From the IMG/VR virus record IMGVR_UViG_3300045988_184134: a DNA stretch of 64,000 bases. The stretch is one strand, 5' to 3'. Below are positions 314-61,505 of this stretch, in pieces. The translations under genes were made by a program, and so were the position numbers. The DNA is from a virus. The notes under the pieces were generated by a model that ran no database searches, was not told the origin of the DNA, and was given only the letters and a program-made list of their open reading frames with translations. The number at the start of each line of letters is the position of its first letter. Position 1 is the stretch's first letter.

Positions 314-423
314 GCCTCTCTATCAATCAATGTTCTGTCCTCCTTGCATATAAAAAAGCAGGCTCGTAAAAGAACCTGCTTTAGTGGTCGTTAATGCACT
401 TTTTGGTTTACAATACCCAGTTT

Positions 424-1571: not shown

Positions 1572-3005
1572 TTACATCGTCGGACTTTGCGGCAGCCACT
1601 GCTGCGGATAAGAACGAAGCAGATTCTTCGGCACACAATCATTCAGTGCAGAGTTCTCAGCAAGTGCCATGTCGATGATGTAGTAATCATCACCGTTGCG
1701 CATCACATCAACACTCCACTGCCCTGTCAGCTCTACGTGCGGGATAACCTTCTTCAGCTCATCCAGAACAATCTGGACACTCTCCTTGTAGCGCTTTTCC
1801 AGCACATCCTCGTGCATCTGGTAGATAACGTAGTCGTGCCGTTCCTGCGGACTGCTCACTTCCTGGAATTTGCCCTTCATCACATCGCTGCGCCAGTAAG
1901 GACTCACTCCGAGAATTGTCTTGGCATCGAAGTCCACAAACACGCGGTATTCAGTGTGCAGCGGCAGACCGTTATAGATAGTCGGGTTTCCTTCCTTGTC
2001 TTTGATATACTCTCTGACAACCCATTCATTGGTCGTATTTGCCCCATAGAAGCAATGTCCATTGGTGGGCGCTGCCATAGAACAGGTCAGGTGGTTCAGA
2101 AACAAGAAATACTCGCCTATCTCACGGACCTCTTGCGGTTCCTGGACATGAGCATTGCGAAACTCGTACTTGGAAGAGTAGGTGCCGGTTTTGATAAAGT
2201 AGTCGCCGTCATCGTTCAGATGGAAGATTCTCTTGCAGTAACGGTTCACAATCGCCTTCGTCACGGGATTCAGCGTCTCAAAGCCGAGTCTCGTGAGTTG
2301 GAGCATCGTGATGGGCACATGTAGGAGTTTCGTCTCCGGCACCTTGAAGAACTTATTACCGTCTAAGCCTTTAACCAACGGCGGCAGCCAGTAGCTCATG
2401 GTGTTCGGATTCATTTCGAGCATCTGATATGTGATGTCATCGAGGTCCAGAATATCGAGGCCCTGGCGGAACATGTGATACTGCATCGCCTTGTTTCGGT
2501 CATTTCTCGCATCGAGATACGCCTTGTAGTGGCTGAGCAGCACCTTGTAAGATGGCTCAGAAATGTCAATCTTCATCAGATTGCCGGTCAGCTGCGGCCG
2601 AAGTTCTTCCGGGAACTTCTTGAGGTCCTCATTCGTAACCGGCGGAAGGATATGCTGGTTTGCGGAATATCGAACGTAGTAACCACCGCGTTTCGGCTCA
2701 TAGATGTACAGTCTGGTGTCATCCATCAGCTCGGCAACGATTTGGTCAATGAGATTGTCCAGCTCTTTCGTAAAAGGCACGCTCTTATCGAGCATTGCCT
2801 TTACGGTTGCGGTATCCCACTGGAGAAGATTGTCAGACAGTGTCCCACTTTCCAGCACTTGGGTTTTGTAGACATCCTCAAAGGTTTTAAGAGCATCAGG
2901 GCTTGTTTTCAGCATCGATGCAAGCTCTTCATAGGAAAACAGCTTATTTTCTTTCTTAGATAGCATTGCACCGATTTGAGCAAGCATGTCATTGAACTGA
3001 GCCAT
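1572..3005 (-). CDS. ATP-grasp-like domain protein (477 aa)
   Basis: C-terminal half has an ATP-grasp-like pattern (…TGTYSSKYEF…VREIGEYFLFLNH…WSVDVMRNGDDYYIIDMALAENS). Start overlaps the stop of 3005..3337 (ATGA). Confidence 0.45.
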   Translation of the reverse strand: MAQFNDMLAQIGAMLSKKENKLFSYEELASMLKTSPDALKTFEDVYKTQVLESGTLSDNLLQWDTATVKAMLDKSVPFTKELDNLIDQIVAELMDDTRLYIYEPKRGGYYVRYSANQHILPPVTNEDLKKFPEELRPQLTGNLMKIDISEPSYKVLLSHYKAYLDARNDRNKAMQYHMFRQGLDILDLDDITYQMLEMNPNTMSYWLPPLVKGLDGNKFFKVPETKLLHVPITMLQLTRLGFETLNPVTKAIVNRYCKRIFHLNDDGDYFIKTGTYSSKYEFRNAHVQEPQEVREIGEYFLFLNHLTCSMAAPTNGHCFYGANTTNEWVVREYIKDKEGNPTIYNGLPLHTEYRVFVDFDAKTILGVSPYWRSDVMKGKFQEVSSPQERHDYVIYQMHEDVLEKRYKESVQIVLDELKKVIPHVELTGQWSVDVMRNGDDYYIIDMALAENSALNDCVPKNLLRSYPQQWLPQSPTM

Positions 3006-3337
3006 CAGTAGCCCTCCTCATCGGGAATCTCATCTGCCGTCAGGTCTTCGTTGAAGTCCACGGTCAAATCAGCAACCGGCGCGTCCAGCTTTTTAAGGCC
3101 GAACGACTCATAGAAGCCATCAGGAATCTCGGCCGCATCACCCCAGTTGAAGTAGCCACTGTTGAGTCGCAGCGTCTTTTTGCCTTCTTCGGTATCCAGA
3201 TAAGACTTTACGGCGTTGCGTACTTGCGTGAGAACGTCATACGCTTTTTCAGAGTCATACTCAAACTGCAACATGGTCGTCTCGGTGCTGAATGGGCCGA
3301 TGATTTCGTTTGCTGCGATAGTAAAAATTTTAGTCAT
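3005..3337 (-). CDS. hypothetical acidic protein (110 aa)
   Basis: AAAGGAG RBS 8 nt before the ATG; first gene after leader/terminator module copy 1. Confidence 0.55.
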   Translation of the reverse strand: MTKIFTIAANEIIGPFSTETTMLQFEYDSEKAYDVLTQVRNAVKSYLDTEEGKKTLRLNSGYFNWGDAAEIPDGFYESFGLKKLDAPVADLTVDFNEDLTADEIPDEEGY

Positions 3338-3364
3338 GGTAAATACACTCCTTTGTTTTGACGC

Positions 3365-3494
3365 AAAAAGAGCGGGCCTCCCGCGTGGGAAGTCCGCTCT
3401 TCAAGCGAAATTGTGAATACGAAGGGCAAGTCGCCTTTTCGATTATGTTATCTATCGTACACTTTTATCTTACGCAATTCGCATATTTTGACAA
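3365..3494 (-). promoter_or_regulatory. module copy 1 (TTGTCA-N16-TAAGAT promoter, leader, terminator) upstream of 3005..3337
   Basis: Same P1, P2 and conserved CGTATTCACAATTTCGCTT box as copy 4; terminator AGAGCGGAC…GCCCGCTCT plus U5 at 3365..3400. Confidence 0.55.
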
Positions 3495-3666
3495 CCGGGT
3501 GCTTTTGTTGGATGAATGACTGGATACGAGTGGCATCGTCATATTCGAGATGAAGGGTCGCGTTTACCATATTAGTAATAGATTGGATTGGTTATTGGAT
3601 AGAATTGGATAGATTTTGTATTGCTATGAGTTAATATCTAATCAAGAACGGAACAGTTGATACCCT

Positions 3667-4824
3667 TTACGGCTTGCAATACCCGCAAGGTGTATAGCCC
3701 TGCTCGATTAGGTCATCGCGGGAACCTGTATAGTCTTTGCGGTTTGCATCGCTCATTTGAGCTACGGCGGAGCAGTCAGGCTTATGAAATTTCATAGAGT
3801 TTGTGTTCAGGACATAGGTACTGACCGTCGTATCCTTTTGCTGTGACTCCTCGACCTCGACTGTATCGGTGGTAGTGCTTTCTGCCGCCTGGTGATATTC
3901 GCCATAAGTGAAAGTGACGTCCTTACCGTCCGATGTGCAGTAGATGTCTCCCATCTCGTCAGTTCTGAAAACCTCAATGTCTTTGCTCTGGAGCTTTGCC
4001 AAAGTGATGTCGTGTGGATGACCATAGCTGTTGTCCTTGCCACAGGAAATAACAGCATAGGCTGGATTCACTGTGTCGAGGAATGCTTCGGATGTGGAGG
4101 TTCGAGAACCATGATGCCCTACCTTCAGAACAGTAGATTGGATGTCTTGTCCAGACTGTAGGATAACATCTTCGGCAGGCTCTTCTGCATCACCCGTAAA
4201 CAAGAATGAGGTTTCTCCATATACGATGCGTAGGACAATGGAGGTATTGTTGGTATCATCCGGCACTGAGTTCACGGCGATAACAGTCACTTCGGCATCG
4301 CCAAGGGAGAATGTATCCCCTACCGACGGAATCGTAAGGCCGTTGCCTCTTTCTTCCGCTCGCTGCTTGAAGTTCCGAAAAGCTTTACTGTCGTACTCTG
4401 TGACAGGGCAATACGTGACATCAGCCGTCACGGCTTCGAATGCACCGGAAAGACCTCCGATATGGTCTTCATGGGCGTGCGTGCCAACAACATAATCCAG
4501 ATGTCCGTCTGTCTCACGTTCCAGAACAGAATATACGAGGTCAGAATCATCAACATTGCCACCGTCAATGAGCATCGAATGCCCATCACAGGTAACAAGA
4601 GCAGAGTCCGCCTGCCCCACATCAATGAAGTGGATAGTAAAGCTGCCGTCTTCCGTTACGCCAGCCGTCTGCTCGCTGTCAGAGACAGGACTTTCTGAGA
4701 CGACCCCGGATACAGGAAGACTACCCGAATCAATCGGGGTCTGACCGCAGCCTGCGAAGCTGAGGGTGAAGAGTGCCGCAATCGCTGCCGCTGCTCTCCG
4801 CAAGAATGTGTTTTTGCTTTGCAT
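3667..4824 (-). CDS. MBL-fold metallo-hydrolase lipoprotein with C-terminal Cys/His zinc-ribbon-like tail
   Basis: Lipobox LSFAGC after the signal peptide; HAHEDHIGG (HxHxDH) metallo-beta-lactamase motif; C-terminal H-K-P-x-C…C-G-Y-C-K-P motif. Confidence 0.7.
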   Translation of the reverse strand: MQSKNTFLRRAAAAIAALFTLSFAGCGQTPIDSGSLPVSGVVSESPVSDSEQTAGVTEDGSFTIHFIDVGQADSALVTCDGHSMLIDGGNVDDSDLVYSVLERETDGHLDYVVGTHAHEDHIGGLSGAFEAVTADVTYCPVTEYDSKAFRNFKQRAEERGNGLTIPSVGDTFSLGDAEVTVIAVNSVPDDTNNTSIVLRIVYGETSFLFTGDAEEPAEDVILQSGQDIQSTVLKVGHHGSRTSTSEAFLDTVNPAYAVISCGKDNSYGHPHDITLAKLQSKDIEVFRTDEMGDIYCTSDGKDVTFTYGEYHQAAESTTTDTVEVEESQQKDTTVSTYVLNTNSMKFHKPDCSAVAQMSDANRKDYTGSRDDLIEQGYTPCGYCKP

Positions 4825-4844
4825 TGGAAATTTCTCCTTTCAAA

Positions 4845-4983
4845 TAAAAAAGAGCGGGCCTACCCCGGAATGGGATAAGTCCGCTCTTAAAACAGATTGT
4901 GAACGATAGAAAATCGTAACATCTTTATGTGTTTGGTATCTATCGCACAATCAATATTGTAGTCAATTCGAAAGGAATGGCAA
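4845..4983 (-). promoter_or_regulatory. module copy 2 (TTGCCA-N16-TACAAT promoter, leader, terminator) upstream of 3667..4824
   Basis: Divergent leader that keeps P1 (GCGATAGA…TCTATCG) and CGTTCACAATCT; terminator AGAGCGGAC…GCCCGCTCT plus U6. Confidence 0.5.
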
Positions 4984-8698: not shown

Positions 8699-8899
8699 CT
8701 ACTCAACCTGAAGCACTGCCTGCATTGAGGTGTGCTGTTTCCGCTTTGCACGTGAAACGGCATGCTGCCTGACCGCCTGGCGGATGGCTGCGTTTGTGTG
8801 TTGGATGCTGGCGGTTTCCTCACGCGAAAAGTTTTTGTCCGTATTTCCTTGAAGATTAGACTCAGTTACAGCCTTTGCAAACTTAATAGATGTCGTCAT
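8699..8899 (-). CDS. small basic protein (66 aa)
   Basis: Internal ATG at 8899 preceded by GGAGG-CAGCT; trimmed from ORF-track 8699..8935. Confidence 0.3.
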   Translation of the reverse strand: MTTSIKFAKAVTESNLQGNTDKNFSREETASIQHTNAAIRQAVRQHAVSRAKRKQHTSMQAVLQVE

Positions 8900-9683
8900 A
8901 GCTGCCTCCGATTCCGGCCCAAAGAGCTTCATCACTCAAGTCGTTGCGAGGGCACTTGATAATGCCCGCTTCTCTTAAAATTTGTCTTGCTTCCTTTGGC
9001 GTTAAGCCGTATTGCTTGGCGAGATTCGATAGAGACTGATTTGGGATAGCTCTGGCTTGTGTAATCAATCGCCTTTTCTTTTCTGTCCAATCGATTGCTA
9101 AGCTCTTGTTTTTTGGAGCTGAGAGAGCGGTTCTTTCAAGGTCTTTTTCGAGGTCTTTTTGGTATTTTTTTGCGGCCGCCTGAATGCCGCTGACCGTCAT
9201 TCCCCATTTATCAGCAATCTTTTTATAAGACATGCCACTGATGTAGTCTTCATATATTTGTTTGTTTCTGGCGTGCTTTTCCTGAACATCTTTCTGGCGA
9301 TAGAGGCGCGTCTTCGCCAAACCTTCACGCTCTTTTTGATACTTTTTCACGATTGACCGAACGCAGCTACTGGTAACGCCCCATTTCTCCGCTATTTTGA
9401 TGCAAGACGCACCACTTATAAACTCTTCATAAATTTGCTTGTTTCTGGTATGTTTTGCCTGTGCATTTTTCTGCCAGTCAAGGCGTGTCTTCGTTAAACC
9501 ATATTTGGGGTCAGAACGTAGAATTTCGACAATTCTATAGCAAGAAAGGCTATATTTGTCCGCCAACTCCAAGACACATACACCATCCATATAATCTCTG
9601 TAAATGGCGTCATTGCGTTCTTTCAAAGATTCATAGACGCCGTTATTCTTTGCCTTCATCATAGTATCGCTGCTTCTCATCAC
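8883..9683 (-). CDS. transcription regulator with four tandem HTH repeats (sigma-70 region-4 / HTH_23-like)
   Basis: Repeated units YRDYMDGVCVLELADKYSLS / YEEFISGASCIKIAEKWGVTSS / YEDYISGMSYKKIADKWGMTVS / SLSNLAKQYGLTPKEARQIL. Confidence 0.55.
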   Translation of the reverse strand: MMRSSDTMMKAKNNGVYESLKERNDAIYRDYMDGVCVLELADKYSLSCYRIVEILRSDPKYGLTKTRLDWQKNAQAKHTRNKQIYEEFISGASCIKIAEKWGVTSSCVRSIVKKYQKEREGLAKTRLYRQKDVQEKHARNKQIYEDYISGMSYKKIADKWGMTVSGIQAAAKKYQKDLEKDLERTALSAPKNKSLAIDWTEKKRRLITQARAIPNQSLSNLAKQYGLTPKEARQILREAGIIKCPRNDLSDEALWAGIGGSYDDIY

Positions 9684-12508: not shown

Positions 12509-12540
12509 GGTTTGAATCCTCCAGAATACGTATTAACGCA

Positions 12541-12634
12541 AAAAGAATACCCCGGCAGGCACGCATGGTGTTCCGCCGGGGTACAATTATTTATCTTACA
12601 ATATCAATTGTAGGCAATTCGCACAGATGGTCAA
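12541..12634 (-). promoter_or_regulatory. module copy 6, short form (TTGACC-N16-TACAAT promoter, then terminator, then RBS of the helicase)
   Basis: TGTGCGAATTG spacer motif; hairpin TACCCCGGCGG…CCGCCGGGGTA plus UUCUUUUU. Confidence 0.5.
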
Positions 12635-17555: not shown

Positions 17556-17876
17556 TTAGCCTTCGATATCGAAAGTGTAGCCCTTCACGGTCATAGTGAC
17601 CAGGCCGCTGCAAGACTTGCACTTTACGCCGTCCAGGCTGACATCGAGAGTCAGGCTGGAATCTTCGTTGTCCAGCCAGCTGGGCCGCATGTAGGCAGCG
17701 AGGTCGTGCAGCGCACCGATGACGTAAGCAACCAGGTCCTCATCATCCAGAGTCTGAGCAATCACGTCGTTTTCCTTGTCAGCGGGAAAGCCGATGGAAG
17801 CGGTGATGCTGTCAAGGGTGTTGTCGCCCTTGGAACGGAAAGCGGTGGCGCTGAACTCAATCAGGTTGGTACTCAT
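17556..17876 (-). CDS. hypothetical protein (106 aa), paralogue of 18065..18385
   Basis: Shares FSATAFRS…WLDNEDSSLTLD… with the neighbouring cassette; has its own promoter and terminator. Confidence 0.5.
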   Translation of the reverse strand: MSTNLIEFSATAFRSKGDNTLDSITASIGFPADKENDVIAQTLDDEDLVAYVIGALHDLAAYMRPSWLDNEDSSLTLDVSLDGVKCKSCSGLVTMTVKGYTFDIEG

Positions 17877-18064: not shown

Positions 18065-18385
18065 TTAGTCTTCGAAATTGAAGGTGAAGCCACTTTCTTT
18101 CATAGCGACAAGGCCGCCGCGCGTCTGACATTTGTTTCTATCGAGAAAGGTTTCAAGCGTCAGGCTGGTGTCCTCATTGTCCAGCCATTTGGGGCGCAGG
18201 TCGCTGATAAGGTTGTACAGTGCTGCGACAGCATGGACAATCAGTTTCTCTTCGCCCAGCATGTTTCCAATCACTTCGTCGTCGTTCTCCACAGGGACGC
18301 TGATGGAAGCCGAGAGACTTTCGAGGTTGTTGTTGTCATCGTTGCGGAATGCGGTAGCTTCGAATTTGAGAGTACAAGTGTTCAT
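18065..18385 (-). CDS. hypothetical protein (106 aa), paralogue of 17556..17876
   Basis: AAAGGAGAA RBS before the internal Met MNTCTLKFEATAF; similar terminator to the sister cassette. Confidence 0.5.
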   Translation of the reverse strand: MNTCTLKFEATAFRNDDNNNLESLSASISVPVENDDEVIGNMLGEEKLIVHAVAALYNLISDLRPKWLDNEDTSLTLETFLDRNKCQTRGGLVAMKESGFTFNFED

Positions 18386-18435
18386 TTTTGATGTTCTCCT
18401 TTGTATGTTATTTGGTTTTCCTTGCACTTTAAATT

Positions 18436-23371: not shown

Positions 23372-23403
23372 TGGTTTACCTCTTTGTGTATAATAAAAAG
23401 AAA

Positions 23404-23490
23404 GAGCGGTCGAGCCGCTCTCCTCAAAACACTTATTTAGCTTACAATTTTCATTCTATGCAATTCGCACAGACACGCAAGGCAAAATGG
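23404..23490 (-). promoter_or_regulatory. module copy 7, short form (TTGCGT-N16-TAGAAT promoter, then terminator, then RBS of 22709..23371)
   Basis: TGTGCGAATTG spacer motif; hairpin GAGAGCGGCTCGACCGCTCTTTC plus U5. Confidence 0.5.
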
Positions 23491-30603: not shown

Positions 30604-30663
30604 AAATATCCTCCAAAATATGTTATTTGTTTTCGGTTTCCCGATGGTTTGTTAGAAAGCAAA

Positions 30664-30746
30664 GTTGTCTGCCAGCCGTAGCTGTTGCCCGCTGCCCGCC
30701 TCGTGGAGGCCTCTTTGCGTAAAGGCAGCTGCGGGGAGAACCCCGC
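30664..30746. other. conserved intergenic structured element, copy A
   Basis: GTTGCCCGCYGC…GCC(Y)CGTGGAGGC…GGCAGC plus terminal hairpin GCGGGGAGAACCCCGC; abuts the stop codon of 30747..31343; no U-run. Confidence 0.4.
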
Positions 30747-33162: not shown

Positions 33163-33196
33163 GGCTTTCTCCCCTTCTTTTTCGTTCTGAAGACTA

Positions 33197-33293
33197 TTTG
33201 CCAGGAGCCTTTCCCGTTGCCCGCCGCTTGCCCCGTGGAGGCTGTCTTCGTTGAGCGGCAGCAGCCCTCAATGGGCTGCGTGATGAACCTCAA
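33197..33293. other. conserved intergenic structured element, copy B
   Basis: Same conserved blocks with covarying stems (CCGC/GCGG instead of GCTGCC/GGCAGC; terminal hairpin CAGCCCTCAATGGGCTG); abuts the stop of 33294..34688. Confidence 0.4.
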
Positions 33294-34978: not shown

Positions 34979-35040
34979 ATTCATACTCCTTTCGCTCATC
35001 ACAACCAATGCCTGTCTTTTGTGCAGGCGCGAATACAAAC

Positions 35041-35073
35041 AAAAAAGCTGCGGAAGCAAAAGCAACCACAGCC
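35041..35073 (-). terminator. intrinsic terminator inside the flotillin leader, about 60 nt before its RBS
   Basis: Minus strand GGCTGTGGTTGCTTTTGCTTCCGCAGC plus UUUUUUG. Confidence 0.5.
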
Positions 35074-35220
35074 TTTTATATGAACCACCGGCCCAGGAAA
35101 AAGCCGATGGGGTGAATACAAGCGGAAAGCAAACATGTCAAAGTGAGAGGAAACCACGTCGTACACACCGGCAGGAAGAGGTTAAGACCCGCCGGAACCC
35201 AATTCCGCTTGTACAATTCT

Positions 35221-50505: not shown

Positions 50506-51708
50506 TTAAAAGAGACTCTTCTGTTCAGCGGTGTTTGCCGCTTCCATCGCTCGCGCCTCACTCTCTTTAGCAGCATCCAACTGTTTCTGCAACTGTTCAA
50601 TTTGCTTGACCAGTGCATCCTCATTGGAGTTCTTCGTGCCGCCAAATAGCTCATTGGAGATAGAGCCTTTCAGTTCATCGTTGTATGCTTCGCCGAGACT
50701 GCGAATTGCGATGTACATAGGCAGCATCGTGTTATAGAGATTGACGATAGCAGCCACAGCAAGACTTGATGTTTCATCCGCCAGGATTCGGCCATTGTCA
50801 TCAATTTTGATGTGCTCATCGTCCATCAAGGAGAAGAAATCGCCGCGCACCACTTTGCCATCTTCACCGACCTTGGTAAAGTATAAGCTCTTGGCAACAG
50901 CACGCTGAGCTTCGGTGAATTTTTGCTTCGTAATGGTACGGTCATAAGCCGGGCTATTTGCAACACCGGCATCCAACAGGGCCAGCGTGCTCAGCATTTC
51001 GGCGGAACAAGACACGCCGTAGTTAGAGAAAGAGAACCAGTCAAAATGACCAATATCTCCATCGTCATCTTCTAACATGAGGTCATTCGTTCCAGATACC
51101 AGAACTGCATTCGTCACGAGGTCAGAGAAGTTCTTCTGGTTTGTCATACCATATTGGACAAAGAATTTCTCTTGCTCAGACAAAGGCTTTTCTGCATCTG
51201 TCTTTCGGGTCATCTGAGATAATGTGTTGCAAAGACGCGAAAAGCCCATTCGGTTCTGTTCCAGATAGCTTTCAGGACTCGCAAGCAGGAAAATGGCAAA
51301 GACTGCCACATTCCCAATCTCGCTTCCATAAAGGCCAGACATACGCTTTGCCAATTTCAGCATGCCATCTTTTTCGTTTTTATAAATTTCACTGACAAGA
51401 GAAGCGACAGAGCCATATTCTTTGCCAAACAGCATTACCAACTTTGTGTATTTGGGTGCCTTATCCGCATACAGCAAATAATAAAGGACAGCTGCGATTT
51501 TTAGTCCCTCCGTGCGCTTGGCACAAGGCAGCACAGTAACGCCATAGAAATTCCCGTCTGCAATAAGTTCTTTTGCGCAGCGACGATAGCAAAGGTTGCT
51601 CTCGTATTCTTCGATGAACCGTTTGCGAGGACCGCCCGTGTGCGTCAGGTCAGCAGCGATAATGCTGCACCACATTGGGTCAAATGGGATAGATTCGTTA
51701 TATTTCAT
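50506..51708 (-). CDS. hypothetical protein (400 aa)
   Basis: Intact ORF with a C-terminal coiled coil. Confidence 0.45.
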   Translation of the reverse strand: MKYNESIPFDPMWCSIIAADLTHTGGPRKRFIEEYESNLCYRRCAKELIADGNFYGVTVLPCAKRTEGLKIAAVLYYLLYADKAPKYTKLVMLFGKEYGSVASLVSEIYKNEKDGMLKLAKRMSGLYGSEIGNVAVFAIFLLASPESYLEQNRMGFSRLCNTLSQMTRKTDAEKPLSEQEKFFVQYGMTNQKNFSDLVTNAVLVSGTNDLMLEDDDGDIGHFDWFSFSNYGVSCSAEMLSTLALLDAGVANSPAYDRTITKQKFTEAQRAVAKSLYFTKVGEDGKVVRGDFFSLMDDEHIKIDDNGRILADETSSLAVAAIVNLYNTMLPMYIAIRSLGEAYNDELKGSISNELFGGTKNSNEDALVKQIEQLQKQLDAAKESEARAMEAANTAEQKSLF

Positions 51709-51876
51709 AAAGAGTTTTCTCCTTTCAAAAGAAAAACCGCTCGGTGTAGCAACCGAACGGCAGGAATTGTGAATTATATAAAGGAATAGTATCTATGCTA
51801 CATTCATAATTGTACGCATATCGCACAGTCGTGCAATAGAAAAAGCCGCCCTCTTGAAAGAGGACGGCAGTTAATG

Positions 51877-53795: not shown

Positions 53796-53930
53796 TTTTT
53801 CGTTCTCCCTTCCAAGAGACAGTTAATTAGTGAGCAGAAAACCATATAGGCTTCTGTATCGCAAGATAGCGATTCGGTCAATTTATTCAAAACAGCACCT
53901 AAGGGCAAGGTACTGGTAGTCCGCCAAATA

Positions 53931-54112
53931 AAAAAGAGCGGGCCTCCTGACGAATCAGGAAGTCCGCTCTTGGCAGTTTGTTAAGGGTCAAAGCTCAAGC
54001 AGCCGGATTGGTTCCGGTGGACAACTTACAACATAGTAAGTTTCCAAATTGCTTGCGATAAATGGTATCCATTAACTGCTTTTTATTATAGGCAGTTCGC
54101 AAGCAGCGTCAA
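53931..54112 (-). promoter_or_regulatory. module copy 3 (TTGACG-N16-TATAAT promoter, different leader, same terminator hairpin) upstream of 53472..53795
   Basis: Terminator AGAGCGGACTTCC…GGAGGCCCGCTCT plus U6 at 53931..53970; about 130 nt more of leader before the RBS. Confidence 0.45.
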
Positions 54113-55414: not shown

Positions 55415-56560
55415 TCACAGTTCCTCCTTGCCGGGCAGGTCCACATCGCTCCAGCGAACGCGGGCGCAACGTGCAACGCAATCGGCCGCAGCAAAGAGTT
55501 TCTTGGCATCCTTTGCATGATTCCGTACCACACTGCCGTACGCATCGCAAACGGACAGATAGATGTCTGCCGCCGTGACAGACGCATTGCCGAAGATAGA
55601 GTCGTAAGCTGCAAATGCTTCTGCTGCTTCAGCTTTCGGCATGCCGCCGCTCTTCAAAACGCGGACGAGAGCAGCTTTGCCGTTCTTCACCTCGATGGTT
55701 TGAAGCTTGCTGATGTCAGTGCTCGCATCATCGAAGTAGGCCAGCAGCGCGGTAAACGCATTGGTAACGCGCCCTTTGATGTCTTCGCCGATATGAGGGA
55801 TAGCAACATCCTTCGCCATAGGCACAACGATACCGCCGCCCATATCAAGGCACGGAATCAGGCGCACAGCGGACGCCGCGACATCCGAGCTAATCATTTG
55901 CACCGCAGGGCTGTATCCGCTGCAGAATTCAGCGGGCAACTTGCGGAAGAACTGGGCCTTGTACGCATCAAGACCGACTACGACGCTCATCATCTCATGG
56001 GACACATACCCGCTCACCATCTCGCGTTCGGGCCAGTTGGTCCGCATGTAGCTGTTCATAATCTCCAGCAGCTCGGCGTTGCTGATGTCGGCGTAGCGGG
56101 CAGAATGCACTGCGCGAATCTTTTCGTGGCTGAATTTGACACGAATCGAGCCCTGGCGTTCTGCCAGAATCAGGTTCAGGACTTCTTTGAGGCTGCCGCG
56201 ATTGTTCTTTCGCAGCAGTTCATAGCAGTTGAGACCAATCATGCCACGGTCGCAGATGCTCCGAATAGCGCTGTCCCCTACCGGCTTGGTTCCGATAGAA
56301 GTCGTGAGATTCAGCCCGGCATGTTCCTGTGTGTCGATGACCGCATCAGTGCTGACCTTCAGGTGCTTTGCATACTCGGGAGCGCAGAGCGGCTCATCAT
56401 AGCTTGCTTCGAAGCGAACATCACGGATGCCCTCATCGAGCCACTGGGTTTGGTTTGCATCCTCTTTGCAGAACTCAACAAGCTCATCAAGCTGGCCGAA
56501 ATCAAAGAACTTCTCGGCACCATCGAGGACGAAATTGGGGGTTTTAGCTGTGTTGGACAT
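55415..56560 (-). CDS. hypothetical protein (381 aa); candidate recombination partner of the exonuclease
   Basis: AAAAAGGAGAA-TGTAAT-ATG; directly upstream of the YqaJ-like gene; driven by module copy 4. Confidence 0.45.
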   Translation of the reverse strand: MSNTAKTPNFVLDGAEKFFDFGQLDELVEFCKEDANQTQWLDEGIRDVRFEASYDEPLCAPEYAKHLKVSTDAVIDTQEHAGLNLTTSIGTKPVGDSAIRSICDRGMIGLNCYELLRKNNRGSLKEVLNLILAERQGSIRVKFSHEKIRAVHSARYADISNAELLEIMNSYMRTNWPEREMVSGYVSHEMMSVVVGLDAYKAQFFRKLPAEFCSGYSPAVQMISSDVAASAVRLIPCLDMGGGIVVPMAKDVAIPHIGEDIKGRVTNAFTALLAYFDDASTDISKLQTIEVKNGKAALVRVLKSGGMPKAEAAEAFAAYDSIFGNASVTAADIYLSVCDAYGSVVRNHAKDAKKLFAAADCVARCARVRWSDVDLPGKEEL

Positions 56561-56584
56561 ATTACATTCTCCTTTTTTAGACGC

Positions 56585-56719
56585 AAAAAGGCGGACCCCC
56601 GAAAATTTCGGAAGGTCCGCCTAAAAGCGAAATTGTGAATACGAAGGGCGCTTTGCCTTTTCGATAACTGTTATCTATCGTACAACTACCATTGTATTCA
56701 CTTCGCACAGCTGTGCAAG
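56585..56719 (-). promoter_or_regulatory. module copy 4: promoter (TTGCAC-N17-TACAAT), conserved structured leader, intrinsic terminator, then RBS of 55415..56560
   Basis: On the minus strand: TTGCACAGCTGTGCGAAGTGAATACAAT; P1 CGATAGATAAC…ATCG; P2 AAGGC-AAAGC-GCCCTT; box CGTATTCACAATTTCGCTT; hairpin GGCGGACC…GGTCCGCC plus U5; AAAAAGGAGAA; ATG. Confidence 0.55.
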
Positions 56720-60428: not shown

Positions 60429-61331
60429 TTAGAGGTTGTACTGTCCCGCAATCAGGCGAGCGGCAGCCTGAATCGGTTTACCGTTGTACTGAGGCCGCAG
60501 GAAGTAGGTGATGGCCCCACCGTTACCGGAGTCCATCATTTCCTTCATGGTCTGCCCAGCAAAACGACCAGCCATAACTTTGAACGCCAGAGCTTTTTCA
60601 AGCGTCATAGGCTCATTGTCGGGAGTCGGATTTGCAGCCGGGACAGGCGGAACAGGGAAAGTGTTCTGAACAGGCGCAGCGACAGGCTTTACAGGTTCAT
60701 CCACTTTTTCTTCAACCTGAGTCGGAGCCGCTTTCGGTGCAGCTTTTTTGACGGTCTTCTTTGCAGCAGGTACATCAGTCTTGGGGTCGGTCTCTTTTTC
60801 CTTCTCCTTGACCTTGTCCTGAAGCTGCTGCGGCACAGGTGGCACCGGGAAATTCGTCAAAACGCCGCCGTCAACGGGGGCATCCGGCAAATCGGCCGTT
60901 GTCTTGTACACGGTAGTGACATCTTCGATGTACTCAGCGTCCGCCGGGGTGCCAAATCCGCAGTTGCCGAGGGCTTTGCGAATCGCGGCCGTACCGGCGT
61001 TCTGGATGTAGTCCTTGCCGAACTGGTCATCGCTGTGATAGCGGGTGGCGAAAGCGTTCGCCAAAAGGTTGCCATTTTCGTCGATGACGCGGCCCTCGAC
61101 CGTTGCCATCTGGTCATTGGCCCGATAGACAATCTGTTCCAAGCGCCCGCCGGGGTGCTTCAGTCGGAACCACAGCATAGCAGGCTCTGCCTGGAGATAC
61201 ATGCGGTTGTTACCTTCCGCATCCTGAAAGCAGGACGTTACCAGGCGGGGGTCAAAACCATCTACTGCATTGACATTAGCCATTGCCGTGAGAGTCTTCT
61301 TCTGGGCATCTTTGATTGTTTCTTTGGTCAT
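60429..61331 (-). CDS. possible Rad52/Sak-like single-strand annealing protein with Pro/Lys-rich linker
   Basis: …GRVIDENGNLLANAFATRY…QNAGTAAIRKALGNCGFG resembles the Rad52 …[20 protein letters not shown] region; weak. Confidence 0.4.
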   Translation of the reverse strand: MTKETIKDAQKKTLTAMANVNAVDGFDPRLVTSCFQDAEGNNRMYLQAEPAMLWFRLKHPGGRLEQIVYRANDQMATVEGRVIDENGNLLANAFATRYHSDDQFGKDYIQNAGTAAIRKALGNCGFGTPADAEYIEDVTTVYKTTADLPDAPVDGGVLTNFPVPPVPQQLQDKVKEKEKETDPKTDVPAAKKTVKKAAPKAAPTQVEEKVDEPVKPVAAPVQNTFPVPPVPAANPTPDNEPMTLEKALAFKVMAGRFAGQTMKEMMDSGNGGAITYFLRPQYNGKPIQAAARLIAGQYNL

Positions 61332-61370
61332 TTCGATTTACTCCTTTTGTTTTTTTGTTGGTTACAAATA

Positions 61371-61505
61371 CAAAAAGAGCGAACCTCCCATAATAGGAAG
61401 TCTGCTCTTTAAGCGAAATTGTGAATACGCAGGGCTTTCGCCTTTTCGATTGTTATGGTATCTATCGTACAACTATCATTGTATCCACTTCGCACAAATG
61501 TGCAA
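61371..61505 (-). promoter_or_regulatory. module copy 5 (TTGCAC-N16-TACAAT promoter, leader, terminator) upstream of 60429..61331
   Basis: P1; P2 with a GAAA loop (AAGGC-GAAA-GCCCTG); conserved box; terminator AGAGCAGAC…GTTCGCTCT plus U5. Confidence 0.55.

What the first reader, a model, noticed from the sequence alone, without database searches (positions are those of the whole stretch)
3365..3494. Module copy 1 (long form) upstream of 3005..3337 and the ATP-grasp-like gene
TTGTCA-N16-TAAGAT promoter with ATGCGAATTG spacer, then P1, P2 (loop GACTT) and the CGTATTCACAATTTCGCTT box. The terminator AGAGCGGACTTCCCACGCGGGAGGCCCGCTCT plus U5 ends 8 nt before AAAGGAG-N8-ATG. The terminator is almost fully palindromic (14 bp with one mismatch and one wobble).
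Basis: seen in the sequence. Interest (0 to 1): 0.6.

Follow-up and report, generated by a model that had tools for sequence, protein, structure and literature searches.

The report
Repeated promoter-leader-terminator gene cassette
This 130-base stretch is one copy of a control cassette (a promoter, a small folded leader RNA, then a strong transcription stop just before the gene) that a large uncultured gut phage-like element places in front of many genes, which implies those genes are expressed only when the stop is overridden.

Summary
On the minus strand, 3494→3365 holds TTGTCA-N16-TAAGAT, a leader starting GUACGAUAGAUA, a small hairpin, the UUCACAAU box and a 14-bp GC-rich hairpin plus T-run, then an RBS and the ATG at 3337.

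It is not chance. A covariance model finds four strong copies in the window (62-91 bits) and two diverged ones. More than 100 distinct copies precede unrelated genes in 30-390 kb human-gut contigs. No Rfam family matches.

Across copies the RNA keeps:
- a helix that pairs its very 5' end, with compensatory variants;
- a covarying inner hairpin;
- an invariant single-stranded box;
- a linker complementary to the terminator's 5' strand.

The cassettes also sit at mosaic boundaries, as T4 PeSL elements do.

Best reading (about 0.5): an antitermination-gated start site for delayed-early genes of a probable jumbo phage, with the leader RNA as the recognition element. The override factor is unidentified and read-through is inferred, not shown.

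Rivals are a leaky insulator plus 5' stabiliser, a Q-like mechanism, and an abundant small RNA. I rate it a new variant of a known kind, of moderate interest.

The parts
3489..3494 (-). -35 hexamer TTGTCA
   Evidence: TTG is conserved in 76 unique upstream regions.
3478..3483 (-). TGCGAA block in the promoter spacer (about -23 to -18). It is shared by about 15 minus-strand promoters of the window.
   Evidence: 1.2-1.5 bits per position.
3467..3472 (-). -10 hexamer TAAGAT, 16 nt after the -35
   Evidence: The family consensus is TAnAAT.
3449..3460 (-). Near-invariant start of the leader, GUACGAUAGAUA. G3460 is the 7th base after the -10, so it is the predicted transcription start (inferred).
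   Evidence: The sequence is exact in 129 of 149 module-type promoters found through a promoter-anchored scan.
3455..3460 (-). P1 5' strand, GUACGA. This is the very 5' end of the predicted RNA.
   Evidence: Pairs with 3417-3422. P1 forms in the minimum-energy fold of 92% of 102 unique copies. Compensatory variants are listed.
3417..3422 (-). P1 3' strand, UCGUAU (5 Watson-Crick pairs plus G3460.U3417). Most relatives have UCGUAC.
3421..3440 (-).
   Evidence: The equivalent helix in relatives has compensatory changes at 3 of 4 pairs, and different sequences in other subfamilies.
3410..3417 (-). Box core UUCACAAU, predicted single-stranded.
   Evidence: Exact conservation was partly imposed by the search pattern. 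Promoter-anchored variants show UUUACAAU, AUUACAAU and UUCACAUU.
3403..3409 (-). Linker UUCGCUU. It is complementary to the first bases of the terminator's 5' strand, so it is a candidate antiterminator strand.
3369..3400 (-). Intrinsic terminator hairpin: 14 pairs, loop ACGC
   Evidence: It covaries in relatives. The family median hairpin energy is -20.7 kcal/mol.
3365..3369 (-). T-run of 5. The first T also pairs with A3400.
3348..3354 (-). Ribosome-binding site AAAGGAG, 10 nt after the T-run and 10 nt before the ATG
3005..3337 (-). First gene served by the cassette (110 aa, no known family), followed by 1572..3005 (477 aa)
56569..56718 (-). Long-form copy before gene 55415..56560. Its promoter starts right after the stop codon of the upstream gene.
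   Evidence: 90.2 bits.
61356..61505 (-). Long-form copy before gene 60429..61331
   Evidence: 79.9 bits.
4832..4983 (-). Short-form copy before the MBL lipoprotein gene 3667..4824. Here the 5' helix is CGAUAGA/UCUAUCG.
   Evidence: (62.5 bits).
51715..51840 (-). Diverged copy before gene 50506..51708. Its 5' end GUAGCA is complementary to UGCUAC in its terminator loop.
   Evidence: 26.3 bits.

Best explanation
Copy 1 is one instance of a portable transcription-start cassette used many times by a roughly 200-240 kb uncultured element of human-gut Clostridia, most likely a jumbo phage.

Proposed mechanism:
1. A host sigma-A-type promoter carrying an element-specific TGCGAA spacer block starts an RNA at about G3460.
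2. The first 60 nt or so fold into a compact domain. In this domain the RNA's own 5' end is paired (P1) around one or two small hairpins.
3. A conserved single-stranded box (UUCACAAU) follows.
4. A short linker follows the box. It can pair with the beginning of the terminator's 5' strand.
5. A strong intrinsic terminator then stops transcription about 30 nt before the start codon.

By default, both transcripts begun here and transcripts arriving from the upstream gene end at this hairpin, giving a roughly 95-nt leader RNA. The downstream genes (3005..3337 and 1572..3005) are made only when the terminator is overridden.

The conserved leader is proposed to be the recognition element for that override. 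This could happen in either of two ways:
- An element-encoded or host factor binds the leader and stabilises the linker:terminator alternative hairpin (RAT- or nut-like).
- The leader modifies RNA polymerase in cis (put-, canT- or EAR-like).

Promoters of the same family that lack a leader and terminator would then be immediate-early promoters, and cassette promoters would be delayed.

The roughly 170-bp cassette also acts as a homology patch at which gene cargo is exchanged.

What is shown and what is inferred:
- Shown: the anatomy, the repetition, the conservation of RNA structure, and the mosaic boundaries.
- Inferred: the start site, termination, its relief, and the factor.
For: Anatomy and repetition:
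- establish the layout and the copies in the window.
- More than 120 loci in IMG/VR carry it, with up to 4 copies per 14 kb, in front of different genes.
- In reference genomes it occurs only in gut Clostridia MAGs.

Promoter:
- The -35, TGCGAA and -10 are conserved in 76 unique upstream regions.

RNA-level structure on this strand:
- The 5' domain is more stable than shuffles in 71 unique sequences (mean z = -2.5, 72% below -2).
- 96.8% of cells are paired, and compensatory changes occur at 3 of 4 pairs of the inner hairpin, with 0 of 500 shuffles reaching the observed score.
- G.U is the commonest closing pair of the inner hairpin, and a U.G pair is conserved in the terminator. Both are valid only in the sense RNA.
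- Variants with a changed 5' end carry matching changes in a partner: GUAUG/CAUAC, ACUA/UAGU, UACC/GGUA, GAUAG/CUAUC, GUAGCA/UGCUAC, GUAUAA/UUAUAC.

Terminator:
- Median hairpin energy is -20.7 kcal/mol and the T-run is mostly 5-7.
- The terminator is present in the minimum-energy fold of 102 of 102 unique copies. An override is therefore needed for expression.

Alternative hairpin:
- In the nascent RNA lacking the terminator's 3' strand, the linker pairs with the terminator's 5' strand (at least 4 bp) in 85% of copies.
- Linker:terminator complementarity exceeds that of permuted partners (6.38 against 5.98 +/- 0.10).

Coupling to genes:
- 79 of 90 copies have an RBS and start codon within 45 nt.

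Two promoter classes:
- Of 67 non-cassette promoters of the same type, 49 lead straight to an RBS.
- In the window, about 10 of 15 promoters have a terminator before the gene.

Precedents:
- Cis-acting RNA antitermination is known in mobile elements: Tn916 canT (PMC11658703) and pLS20 conAn2 (PMC8191782).
Against: - There are no expression, 5'-end or 3'-end data of any kind.
- No antiterminator was found. About 75 window proteins scanned gave no NusG-like, Q, N, ANTAR or CAT/PRD domain. There was only a sub-threshold Q hit inside a Mor/CD3324 helix-turn-helix protein. Only about 84 kb of a roughly 200-kb element was inspected.
- The linker:terminator hairpin is only 5-6 bp, against a terminator of about -20 kcal/mol.
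- Its excess over permuted partners is small and could reflect shared ancestry.
- A constitutive cis-acting antiterminator would make the adjacent terminator pointless. Polymerases arriving from upstream also transcribe the leader, so the cassette does not obviously tell the two sources apart.
- P1 and P2 do not vary within the main subfamily, so their support comes from rarer variants.
- The window's own three long copies have a 2-nt shorter P1 3' strand and weak fold z-scores for the 5' domain (-0.4 to -0.9).
- Exact conservation of CGATAGATA and TTCACAAT was partly imposed by the search pattern.
Confidence: 0.5

Rival explanations
1. PeSL-like insulator with a leaky terminator and no dedicated antitermination. 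The hairpin mainly ends upstream transcripts and damps read-through. A fixed fraction of polymerases pass it. The 5'-terminal helix simply protects the read-through mRNA against 5'-end-dependent decay (RNase J/Y in Firmicutes). The cassette is conserved mostly because it is a recombination patch that moves genes together with their own signals.
For: - The cassettes are enriched at homology breakpoints: 40% discordant flanks, against 8-24% at control junctions 400-600 nt away.
- They sit in a region of unknown and anti-defence-type genes, like PeSLs in T4-type hyperplastic regions (PMC2839356, PMC4122927).
- Conservation extends through the RBS.
- No terminator lies between the end of gene 3667..4824 and this promoter, so the hairpin does end that transcript.
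- Protection of mRNA by a 5'-terminal stem-loop is established in Bacillus (my own knowledge).
Against: - In PeSLs the stem-loop lies upstream of, or within, the promoter, so new transcripts avoid it (PMC2839356). Here it lies inside the new transcript.
- With about -20 kcal/mol and 5-7 U, it should stop most of them.
- A stabiliser needs any 5' hairpin. It does not need an invariant 12-nt start, an invariant single-stranded box and a linker matched to the terminator.
Confidence: 0.25
2. Q-like, DNA-level antitermination. A factor binds the TGCGAA block between -35 and -10. It loads onto polymerase held at a sigma-dependent pause caused by the -10-like TACGAT at +2 to +7. It then carries the polymerase through the nearby terminator, as at lambda pR'-qut-tR'.
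For: - The layout matches: a conserved block in the spacer, a TAnnnT hexamer just after the start and a strong terminator about 90-100 nt downstream.
- Several 5' variants keep or improve the -10-like pattern: TATAAT, TACAAT, TATGAT, AACGAT.
- Among non-cassette promoters, TGTA just after the -10 is associated with a downstream terminator (9 of 15 against 9 of 52, Fisher p = 0.002; the sequences are not independent).
- A Mor/CD3324 multi-HTH protein with a faint Q-family hit is encoded at 8883-9683.
Against: - TGCGAA is equally present at promoters that have no terminator.
- This model does not explain the covarying hairpin, the compensated 5' helix or the G.U pairs, all of which are RNA-level features.
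- Five of 13 variant types break the critical A or T of the hexamer.
- The Q hit is below threshold and lies in a generic HTH.
Confidence: 0.1
3. The terminated leader, about 95 nt, is itself the product. It would be an abundant small RNA made from many strong early promoters and acting in trans, for example as a decoy for a host protein or defence system. Downstream gene expression would be a by-product of leakage.
For: - It has a defined promoter and terminator.
- It has invariant single-stranded motifs (AUAGAUA, ACAAU repeats).
- Many copies occur per genome.
- The neighbourhood is rich in anti-defence-like genes: NADAR, an AcrVA2-like gene and a faint Apyc1 match in relatives.
Against: - 79 of 90 copies are followed within 45 nt by an RBS and start codon, and none was seen standing alone.
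- The downstream genes have no other promoter.
- No target is known.
Confidence: 0.08
4. A metabolite- or ion-sensing riboswitch with a terminator expression platform.
For: The layout is aptamer-like: a three-helix domain followed by a terminator with a competing hairpin.
Against: - No Rfam family matches, even at E up to 10.
- The inner hairpin is dispensable in short forms.
- Helix registers differ between subfamilies.
- The conserved bases are helix strands and a linear box rather than a junction core.
- It controls dozens of unrelated genes of a mobile element.
Confidence: 0.03
5. The hairpin is only the terminator of the upstream gene 3667..4824, and the promoter-like hexamers at 3494-3467 are not functional.
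For: - TAAGAT is a weak -10, and the scan score is 9 of 12, which shuffled sequence reaches about as often (3 found against 2.7 +/- 1.4 expected).
Against: - The same -35, TGCGAA, -10 and start arrangement is conserved at fixed spacing in 76 unique upstream regions.
- It occurs even where a separate terminator already precedes it.
- The genes behind the cassettes have no other promoter.
Confidence: 0.02

Closest known systems
PeSL (promoter-early stem-loop) cassettes of T4-type phages (PMC2839356, PMC4122927)
   Same: [quoted passage not shown]
- Dense in a region of small genes of unknown function.
- Located at insertion, deletion and replacement boundaries. Here 40% of flank pairs are discordant, against 8-24% in controls.
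   Different: - PeSL stem-loops lie upstream of, within or just before the promoter, so new transcripts do not contain them.
- Here the terminator lies about 60-95 nt inside the new transcript.
- It is preceded by a conserved, structured leader RNA, which PeSLs lack.
- The host lineage differs (gut Clostridia) and there is no sequence similarity.
Cis-acting RNA antiterminators: HK022 put, Bacillus EAR, Tn916 canT (PMC11658703), pLS20 conAn2 (PMC8191782)
   Same: - A structured RNA encoded just downstream of a promoter of a mobile element and upstream of intrinsic terminators.
- Two small stem-loops, as in put.
- A role in letting element-initiated transcription pass terminators is plausible.
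   Different: - Those elements occur once or twice per element and act processively over kilobases. Here there is one per operon, each immediately followed by its own terminator.
- conAn2 is 260-600 nt and works with the ConAn1 protein.
- There is no sequence or Rfam similarity.
- Antitermination activity is untested here.
Lambda N/nut and lambda Q/qut (pR'-6S RNA-tR') antitermination
   Same: - A promoter-proximal recognition element followed by a strong terminator that gates later genes.
- A short terminated leader RNA, like the 6S RNA of pR'.
- A conserved block between -35 and -10 and a -10-like hexamer at the start, as at qut.
   Different: - No N- or Q-family protein was found.
- The spacer block also occurs at promoters without terminators.
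- There are many sites per genome rather than one or two.
- The leader structure covaries, which qut does not require.
Protein-dependent terminator/antiterminator leaders (LicT/SacY RAT, ANTAR targets)
   Same: A short alternative hairpin overlaps the 5' strand of a terminator and is too weak to win unless stabilised by a bound protein.
   Different: - There is no RAT or ANTAR consensus, such as two hexaloop hairpins.
- No CAT/PRD or ANTAR protein was detected.
- These are mobile-element early genes, not catabolic operons.

Membership tests
Sigma-70/sigma-A type promoter | -35 TTGACA-like and -10 TATAAT-like hexamers 16-18 bp apart, with the start about 7 nt downstream | tested here: met
   TTGTCA-16-TAAGAT, with G3460 the 7th base after the -10. 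The hexamers are conserved in 76 unique copies. Activity was not tested.
Intrinsic (Rho-independent) terminator | GC-rich hairpin immediately followed by a U-run | tested here: met
   A 14-pair hairpin plus T5. It covaries in relatives. The family median is -20.7 kcal/mol, with a T-run mostly of 5-7. Termination itself was not tested.
Any Rfam 15 family | Score at or above the family's gathering threshold | tested here: not met
   No hit on the window at gathering thresholds. Only junk hairpin hits far below threshold appear at E up to 10.
PeSL cassettes | [quoted passage not shown] | tested here: met
PeSL cassettes | Stem-loop placed upstream of, within or just before the promoter, so it ends upstream transcripts only | tested here: not met
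   The hairpin starts about 60 nt downstream of the predicted start, after a conserved leader.
PeSL cassettes | Association with insertion, deletion and replacement boundaries | tested here: met
   Discordant flank homology is 40% at the cassette, against 8-24% at control junctions. The pairs are not independent.
put/EAR/canT-type cis-acting antiterminator RNA | The RNA element is sufficient in cis for read-through of heterologous terminators | not testable with these tools
   This needs reporter or in vitro transcription assays.
put/EAR/canT-type cis-acting antiterminator RNA | Conserved RNA secondary structure downstream of a promoter and upstream of terminators | tested here: met
Lambda Q/qut system | A Q-family protein is encoded by the element | tested here: inconclusive
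   Only a sub-threshold PF06530 hit was found (E = 5e-3, 17 bits against a cutoff of 26), inside a Mor/CD3324 HTH protein. Less than half of the element was seen.
Lambda Q/qut system | A -10-like pause-inducing hexamer in the initially transcribed region and a binding element near the promoter | tested here: inconclusive
   TACGAT lies at +2 to +7 and TGCGAA lies in the spacer. However, TGCGAA also occurs at terminator-less promoters, and pausing was not tested.
Lambda N/nut system | boxA plus a boxB hairpin recognised by an arginine-rich N protein | tested here: not met
   No boxA or boxB consensus is present. No small arginine-rich candidate stands out among the basic proteins of the window.
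Riboswitch | Conserved ligand-binding core with covarying helices, controlling genes related to the ligand | tested here: not met
   No Rfam match. The inner hairpin is dispensable and helix registers shift. The downstream genes are unrelated.
pLS20-type ConAn system | A conAn2 RNA region of 260-600 nt next to a conAn1 gene | tested here: not met
   The leader is about 60 nt and there are many copies. Each is followed by a different gene. The comparison paper is PMC8191782.

The most novel reading that the evidence does not exclude
The leader is a new kind of RNA licence for terminator passage, deployed at dozens of sites per genome. The helix that ties up the RNA's own 5' end, together with the invariant GUACGAUAGAUA and ACAAU-repeat box, would let polymerase (alone or with an unknown phage factor) ignore the adjacent strong terminator. 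This would give a jumbo phage a genome-wide, cassette-borne immediate-early to delayed-early switch. The cassettes would also double as the recombination patches that shuffle its anti-defence cargo. A variant of this reading is that the mass-produced roughly 95-nt terminated leader is in addition a trans-acting decoy RNA.
Probability: 0.25. Interest if true: 0.75.

Novelty: new variant of a known kind. Interest (0 to 1): 0.55.

Why it matters
- If the gate model holds, it would be the first antitermination-type control described for large uncultured phages or elements of gut Clostridia.
- It would be unusual in using one conserved RNA leader per operon, many times per genome, rather than one or two sites.
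- The cassette gives a compact, sequence-defined handle for finding early and delayed transcription units in about 200-kb gut elements whose proteins are almost all unknown.
- It offers a ready set of natural promoter, leader and terminator variants for testing how a leader overrides an intrinsic terminator.
- It extends the PeSL idea of regulatory cassettes as vehicles of gene shuffling from T4-type phages to a different lineage, with a different internal layout.

Tried and rejected
- Known RNA family: no Rfam hit at gathering thresholds, none of use at permissive E-values on the window, and none on the isolated cassette or a main-type relative.
- Relatives in annotated collections: nothing useful in PLSDB (only a ComEC-like match inside the MBL gene) or in INPHARED.
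- The box as an anti-Shine-Dalgarno sequence: box:translation-start duplexes (-4.27 kcal/mol) are no stronger than permuted (-4.54) or shuffled (-5.05) partners. Rejected.
- An antisense promoter in the reverse complement of the box: it resembles the spacer and -10 of the family promoters, but it has no valid -10 (TACGAA) and no -35. Dropped on reading the sequence.
- Single-strand (Frpo-like) promoter of a conjugative leading region: the promoter is not part of an inverted repeat. Dropped.
- Search for an antiterminator protein: eleven family scans covering about 75 window proteins found none. A screen for small basic N-like proteins gave no convincing candidate.
- 'ATP-grasp-like' for 1572..3005: no support.
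- The 477-aa and 481-aa proteins as paralogues that would explain a 20-kb indel: they are not similar.
- Conjugative plasmid or ICE as the element type: sortase, signal peptidase and a DUF3854 primase first suggested it. No type IV secretion or relaxase hit appeared. An 8-tRNA array, gp30.3/NADAR, HNH, MazG and the IMG/VR calls favour a jumbo phage. This remains unproven, because no structural gene was seen.
- MAFFT plus RNAalifold on all subfamilies recovers only P1 and the terminator. The inner helices needed a subfamily alignment and per-sequence folding.
Full report
**1. What is there**

Nearly all genes of the window lie on the minus strand. Read on that strand, 3494→3335 contains the following:
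- TTGTCA at 3494-3489.
- A 16-nt spacer, AAATATGCGAATTGCG.
- TAAGAT at 3472-3467.
- Six bases, then GTACGATAGATA at 3460-3449.
- A small interrupted hairpin with loop GACTT at 3440-3421.
- The stretch CGTATTCACAATTTCGCTT at 3421-3403.
- A 32-nt hairpin at 3400-3369: 14 pairs, one A.C mismatch, one U.G wobble, loop ACGC.
- Five T in a row at 3369-3365. The first is also the last base of the stem.
- Ten bases, then AAAGGAG at 3354-3348.
- Ten bases, then the ATG of ORF 3005..3337.

The predicted 97-nt RNA folds at -31.9 kcal/mol, z = -3.5.

**2. It is a repeated unit, not chance**

- A 56-nt piece (3388-3443) recurs at 56610 and 61396.
- A covariance model built from 38 diverse copies scores four full copies in the window with filters off. 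These four were among or close to its training sequences:
  - 3349-3460: 90.7 bits.
  - 56569-56683: 90.2 bits.
  - 61356-61470: 79.9 bits.
  - 4832-4948: 62.5 bits (the short form).
- Two weak matches also appear: 53916-54022 (terminator only) and 51715-51801 (a diverged copy).
- An exact 16-mer of the box found near-identical copies in IMG/VR.
Most are human-gut contigs of 30-390 kb, with up to four copies per 14 kb, in front of different genes.
- In 185,579 reference genomes, true copies occur only in a few gut Clostridia MAGs, chiefly a 224-kb contig with at least eight copies.
- No Rfam family matches at any threshold tried.
- Nothing similar exists in the annotated phage or plasmid collections.
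- A full-text search for the two motifs found only unrelated papers.

**3. The promoter**

About 15 minus-strand promoters of the window share TTGnnn-N5-TGCGAA-N5-TAnAAT. Across 76 unique upstream regions of cassette copies the consensus is:
- a T-rich stretch;
- cTTGcca;
- N5;
- TGCGAA;
- N5;
- TAnAAT;
- seven bases ending in aAtT;
- GTACGA.

The information content is 1.1-1.9 bits at the named positions. This is a canonical sigma-A layout plus an element-specific spacer block. The G of GTACGA is the 7th or 8th base after the -10, so it is the likely start (inferred).

**4. The leader RNA**

Folding 96 unique copies one by one gives the same architecture:
- The first six bases, GUACGA, pair with UCGUAC (P1).
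- P1 encloses a hairpin built on the invariant AUAGAUA (P2: UAGAU/AUCUA, UAGA/UCUA or GAUA/UAUC, depending on subfamily).
- Then comes a single-stranded (AC)AAUUCACAAU.

Evidence that this is selected at the RNA level:
1. With the 12 invariant bases fixed and only the variable part shuffled, 71 unique 5' domains have a mean z of -2.5, and 72% fall below -2.
2. On a subfamily alignment, 96.8% of cells pair, and P3 has changes on both sides at 3 of 4 pairs. No shuffle in 500 reaches the observed score, and slid controls collapse. Other subfamilies have unrelated P3 sequences that still pair: AAAGGC/GCCUUU, CCGAA/UUCGG, GACAAG/CUUGUG.
3. Promoter-anchored searching found copies whose 5' end differs, each with a matching partner:
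   - Partner before the box: GUAUG/CAUAC, ACUA/UAGU, UACC/GGUA, GAUAG/CUAUC, and CGAUAGA/UCUAUCG in the window's short copy.
   - Partner after the box or in the terminator loop: GUAUAA/UUAUAC, GUGCAU/AUGUGC, GUAUGA/UCAUAU, and GUAGCA/UGCUAC in the window's fifth copy.
4. G.U is the commonest closing pair of P3, and a U.G is conserved in the terminator. These are pairs only in the sense RNA.

Caveats:
- P1 and P2 never vary within the main subfamily.
- The two anchors of the search pattern are conserved by construction.
- The window's three long copies have a 2-nt shorter P1 3' strand (UCGUAU) and weak z-scores for the 5' domain alone.

**5. The terminator and its competitor**

- The hairpins are strong: median -20.7 kcal/mol, T-run mostly 5-7.
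- They covary.
- They are present in the minimum-energy fold of all 102 unique copies.
- The 5-7 bases after the box (UUCGC, UCUGC, CUGC) are complementary to the first bases of the terminator's 5' strand (GCGGA, GCAGA).
- In a nascent RNA lacking the terminator's 3' strand, this hairpin forms (at least 4 bp) in 85% of copies.
- Own-partner complementarity is modestly above that of permuted partners (6.38 against 5.98 +/- 0.10).
- The same linker also matches bases just after the T-run (UCUGCA/UGCAGA, CUGUA/UACAG, UGCAAA/UUUGCA; 3.60 against 3.17 +/- 0.10). Read-through RNA could therefore form a longer duplex.
- These excesses are small and could partly reflect shared ancestry.

**6. Context**

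- 79 of 90 unique copies are followed by an RBS and a start codon within 45 nt, at a median of 24 nt.
- In family loci, 145 of 212 unique TGCGA-type promoters carry the cassette.
- Of the other 67, 49 run straight into an RBS with no terminator.
- In the window, about 10 of 15 such promoters have a terminator before the gene. Five of these use the cassette, and the others use different short leaders.
- So the element has two promoter classes: ungated and terminator-gated.

The window's proteins are mostly of unknown function. Those with a match are:
- an MBL/ComEC-like lipoprotein, a sortase, signal peptidase S26 and a DUF3854 primase-like protein;
- a YqaJ exonuclease, a UvrD-like helicase, a Y-family polymerase and a flotillin;
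- NADAR/gp30.3, a MazG-like protein and an HNH endonuclease;
- a protein of three Mor/CD3324 HTH repeats.

The same genes lie on 198-237 kb contigs in many human-gut metagenomes. Relatives there carry an AcrVA2-like gene. An array of eight tRNAs lies 5-10 kb beyond window position 1. I read the element as a probable jumbo phage and the window as its early, hyperplastic region. No structural gene was seen, so this is not proven.

**7. Mosaic boundaries**

I compared 150-nt flanks of all pairs of 117 cassette instances. In 40% of pairs with any flank homology, the homology lies on one side only. At control junctions shifted by +/-400-600 nt the figure is 8-24%. Examples include identical cassettes followed by different genes, and the same downstream gene behind different leaders joined within the terminator. 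This is the behaviour described for the PeSL promoter/terminator cassettes of T4-type phages (PMC2839356, PMC4122927).

**8. Mechanism**

The default thermodynamic state is 'terminator formed', and the genes behind the cassettes have no other promoter. Expression therefore requires passage of a strong terminator that lies inside the transcript. Three conserved features are what one expects of a recognition element for that passage:
- the sequence-specific leader, with its invariant 12-nt start;
- the single-stranded box, which contains two ACAAU repeats;
- the linker matched to the terminator.

My best explanation (about 0.5) is an antitermination gate. Either a factor stabilises the linker:terminator hairpin, or the leader acts on polymerase in cis as put, EAR, canT or conAn2 do (PMC11658703, PMC8191782). 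Ungated promoters would then be immediate-early and gated ones delayed.

Against this reading:
- There are no expression data.
- No antiterminator was found in the 84 kb inspected.
- The competing hairpin is weak.
- There is no evident way to distinguish polymerases arriving from upstream.

**9. Rivals**

- **Leaky PeSL-like insulator whose 5' helix merely stabilises the mRNA (0.25).** It fits the mosaic data, but not the invariant sequences or the position of the terminator inside the transcript.
- **Q-like DNA/pause mechanism (0.1).** It matches the layout (spacer block, TACGAT at +2 to +7, nearby terminator). However, the block also occurs at ungated promoters, and the model ignores the RNA covariation.
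- **The terminated leader as a trans-acting small RNA (0.08).**
- **A riboswitch (0.03).**
- **A plain upstream terminator with a spurious promoter (0.02).**

The idea that the box masks the ribosome-binding site was tested and rejected.

**10. Verdict**

- The finding is a genuine copy of a widespread, undescribed promoter-leader-terminator cassette.
- It works like known gated leaders, and it shuffles like PeSLs.
- It is a member of no described family. The PeSL defining layout is not met, there is no Rfam match, and no N, Q, ConAn or RAT features are present.
- I rate it a new variant of a known kind, with interest 0.55.
- As one copy of a module reported elsewhere, it adds mainly the confirmation of the anatomy and a weaker-than-typical P1.

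Noticed in passing
window 33188-33259 (-) and 30659-30729 (-): Two near-threshold, full-length matches to the HDV-like ribozyme family RF02682 (HDV-F-prausnitzii): 43.0 bits against a gathering score of 44 (E = 1.3e-4), and 35.9 bits (E = 5.7e-3). They lie inside the long minus-strand transcription unit. They may be self-cleaving ribozymes that process the polycistronic RNA.
   Followed up: no
window, minus strand, TGCGAA blocks at about 61493, 56706, 54100, 51825, 36231, 35237, 28104, 23468, 18448, 17938, 12622, 4975, 3482, 983, 434: A family of about 15 promoters with the same TTGnnn-N5-TGCGAA-N5-TAnAAT layout. The conserved spacer block suggests an element-specific promoter factor. About 10 are followed by a terminator before the gene and 5 are not.
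   Followed up: partly
window about 12520-12600 (-), 23385-23445 (-), 345-410 (-): Other short leader classes after the same promoter type (GTAAGATAAATAA..., GTAAGCTAAATAAG..., GTAAACC...). Each ends in a hairpin plus T-run just before an RBS. Terminator gating is therefore not limited to the cassette studied.
   Followed up: no
window 53916-54075 (-): A different, well-folded leader of about 130 nt after promoter TTGACG-N16-TATAAT. It ends in the same AGAGCGGACTTCC...GGAGGCCCGCTCT terminator, but no RBS follows directly. It may be a separate small RNA gene. It is conserved in L001.
   Followed up: no
window about 35020-35215 (-): After the promoter at about 35237, the RNA would form a roughly 100-nt long hairpin (GUACAAGCGGAA...UUCCGCUUGUAU), followed by two more hairpins with T-runs. 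It may be a structured non-coding RNA.
   Followed up: no
window 8883-9683 (-); DNA repeat 9147-9500: A protein made of three Mor/CD3324-type helix-turn-helix repeats, annotated as a 'late transcriptional activator' in PHROGs. It is encoded by a 177-nt tandem DNA repeat. It is a candidate binder of the TGCGAA block or of other repeated promoter elements. A similar 174-aa protein lies just beyond the window start.
   Followed up: partly
L172 16083-20134 (5-10 kb beyond window position 1): An array of eight tRNA genes (Thr x2, Asn, Met, Asp, Gly, Ala, Ser) on the same 237-kb contig. This points to a jumbo phage rather than a plasmid.
   Followed up: partly
window 17556-17876 (-) and 18065-18391 (-): Two paralogous small acidic proteins (106 and 108 aa), each with its own strong promoter and no terminator. 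Homologues in relatives have the same ungated arrangement. They may be immediate-early products, such as DNA-mimic anti-restriction proteins.
   Followed up: no
window 3570-3615 (-): Short ATCCAAT-type direct repeats (ctatccaattctatccaataaccaatccaatc) in the AT-rich spacer upstream of the copy 1 promoter. They are not seen at other copies.
   Followed up: no
L031 and L061 (promoter TTGACGCATTATGCGAGTTGCGTAAACT): The promoter that carries a cassette in L073 is here joined directly to ...CTGCTTTTTGTTTTGCAGAC, the 3' half of a terminator, and then to the RBS. It is a natural derivative with the leader and the terminator's 5' half deleted, which would be useful as an 'always open' comparison.
   Followed up: no
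window 3667-4824 (-): The gene between copies 2 and 1 is a lipoprotein-type metallo-beta-lactamase-fold protein, closest to the ComEC/Rec2 nuclease domain (NCBIfam 8.3e-40, below its cutoff). On relatives it has a faint precomputed match to anti-Pycsar Apyc1. It may be an anti-defence or DNA-degrading function.
   Followed up: no
main-type cassettes, e.g. L056 3703-3817: The P2 hairpin UAGAU-ACC-AUCUAC superficially recalls the Cas12a repeat stem (UCUAC/GUAGA), but with the strands in the opposite order. A relative carries an AcrVA2-like gene (L173 1-464). This is probably coincidence, and an RNA-decoy role was not tested.
   Followed up: no
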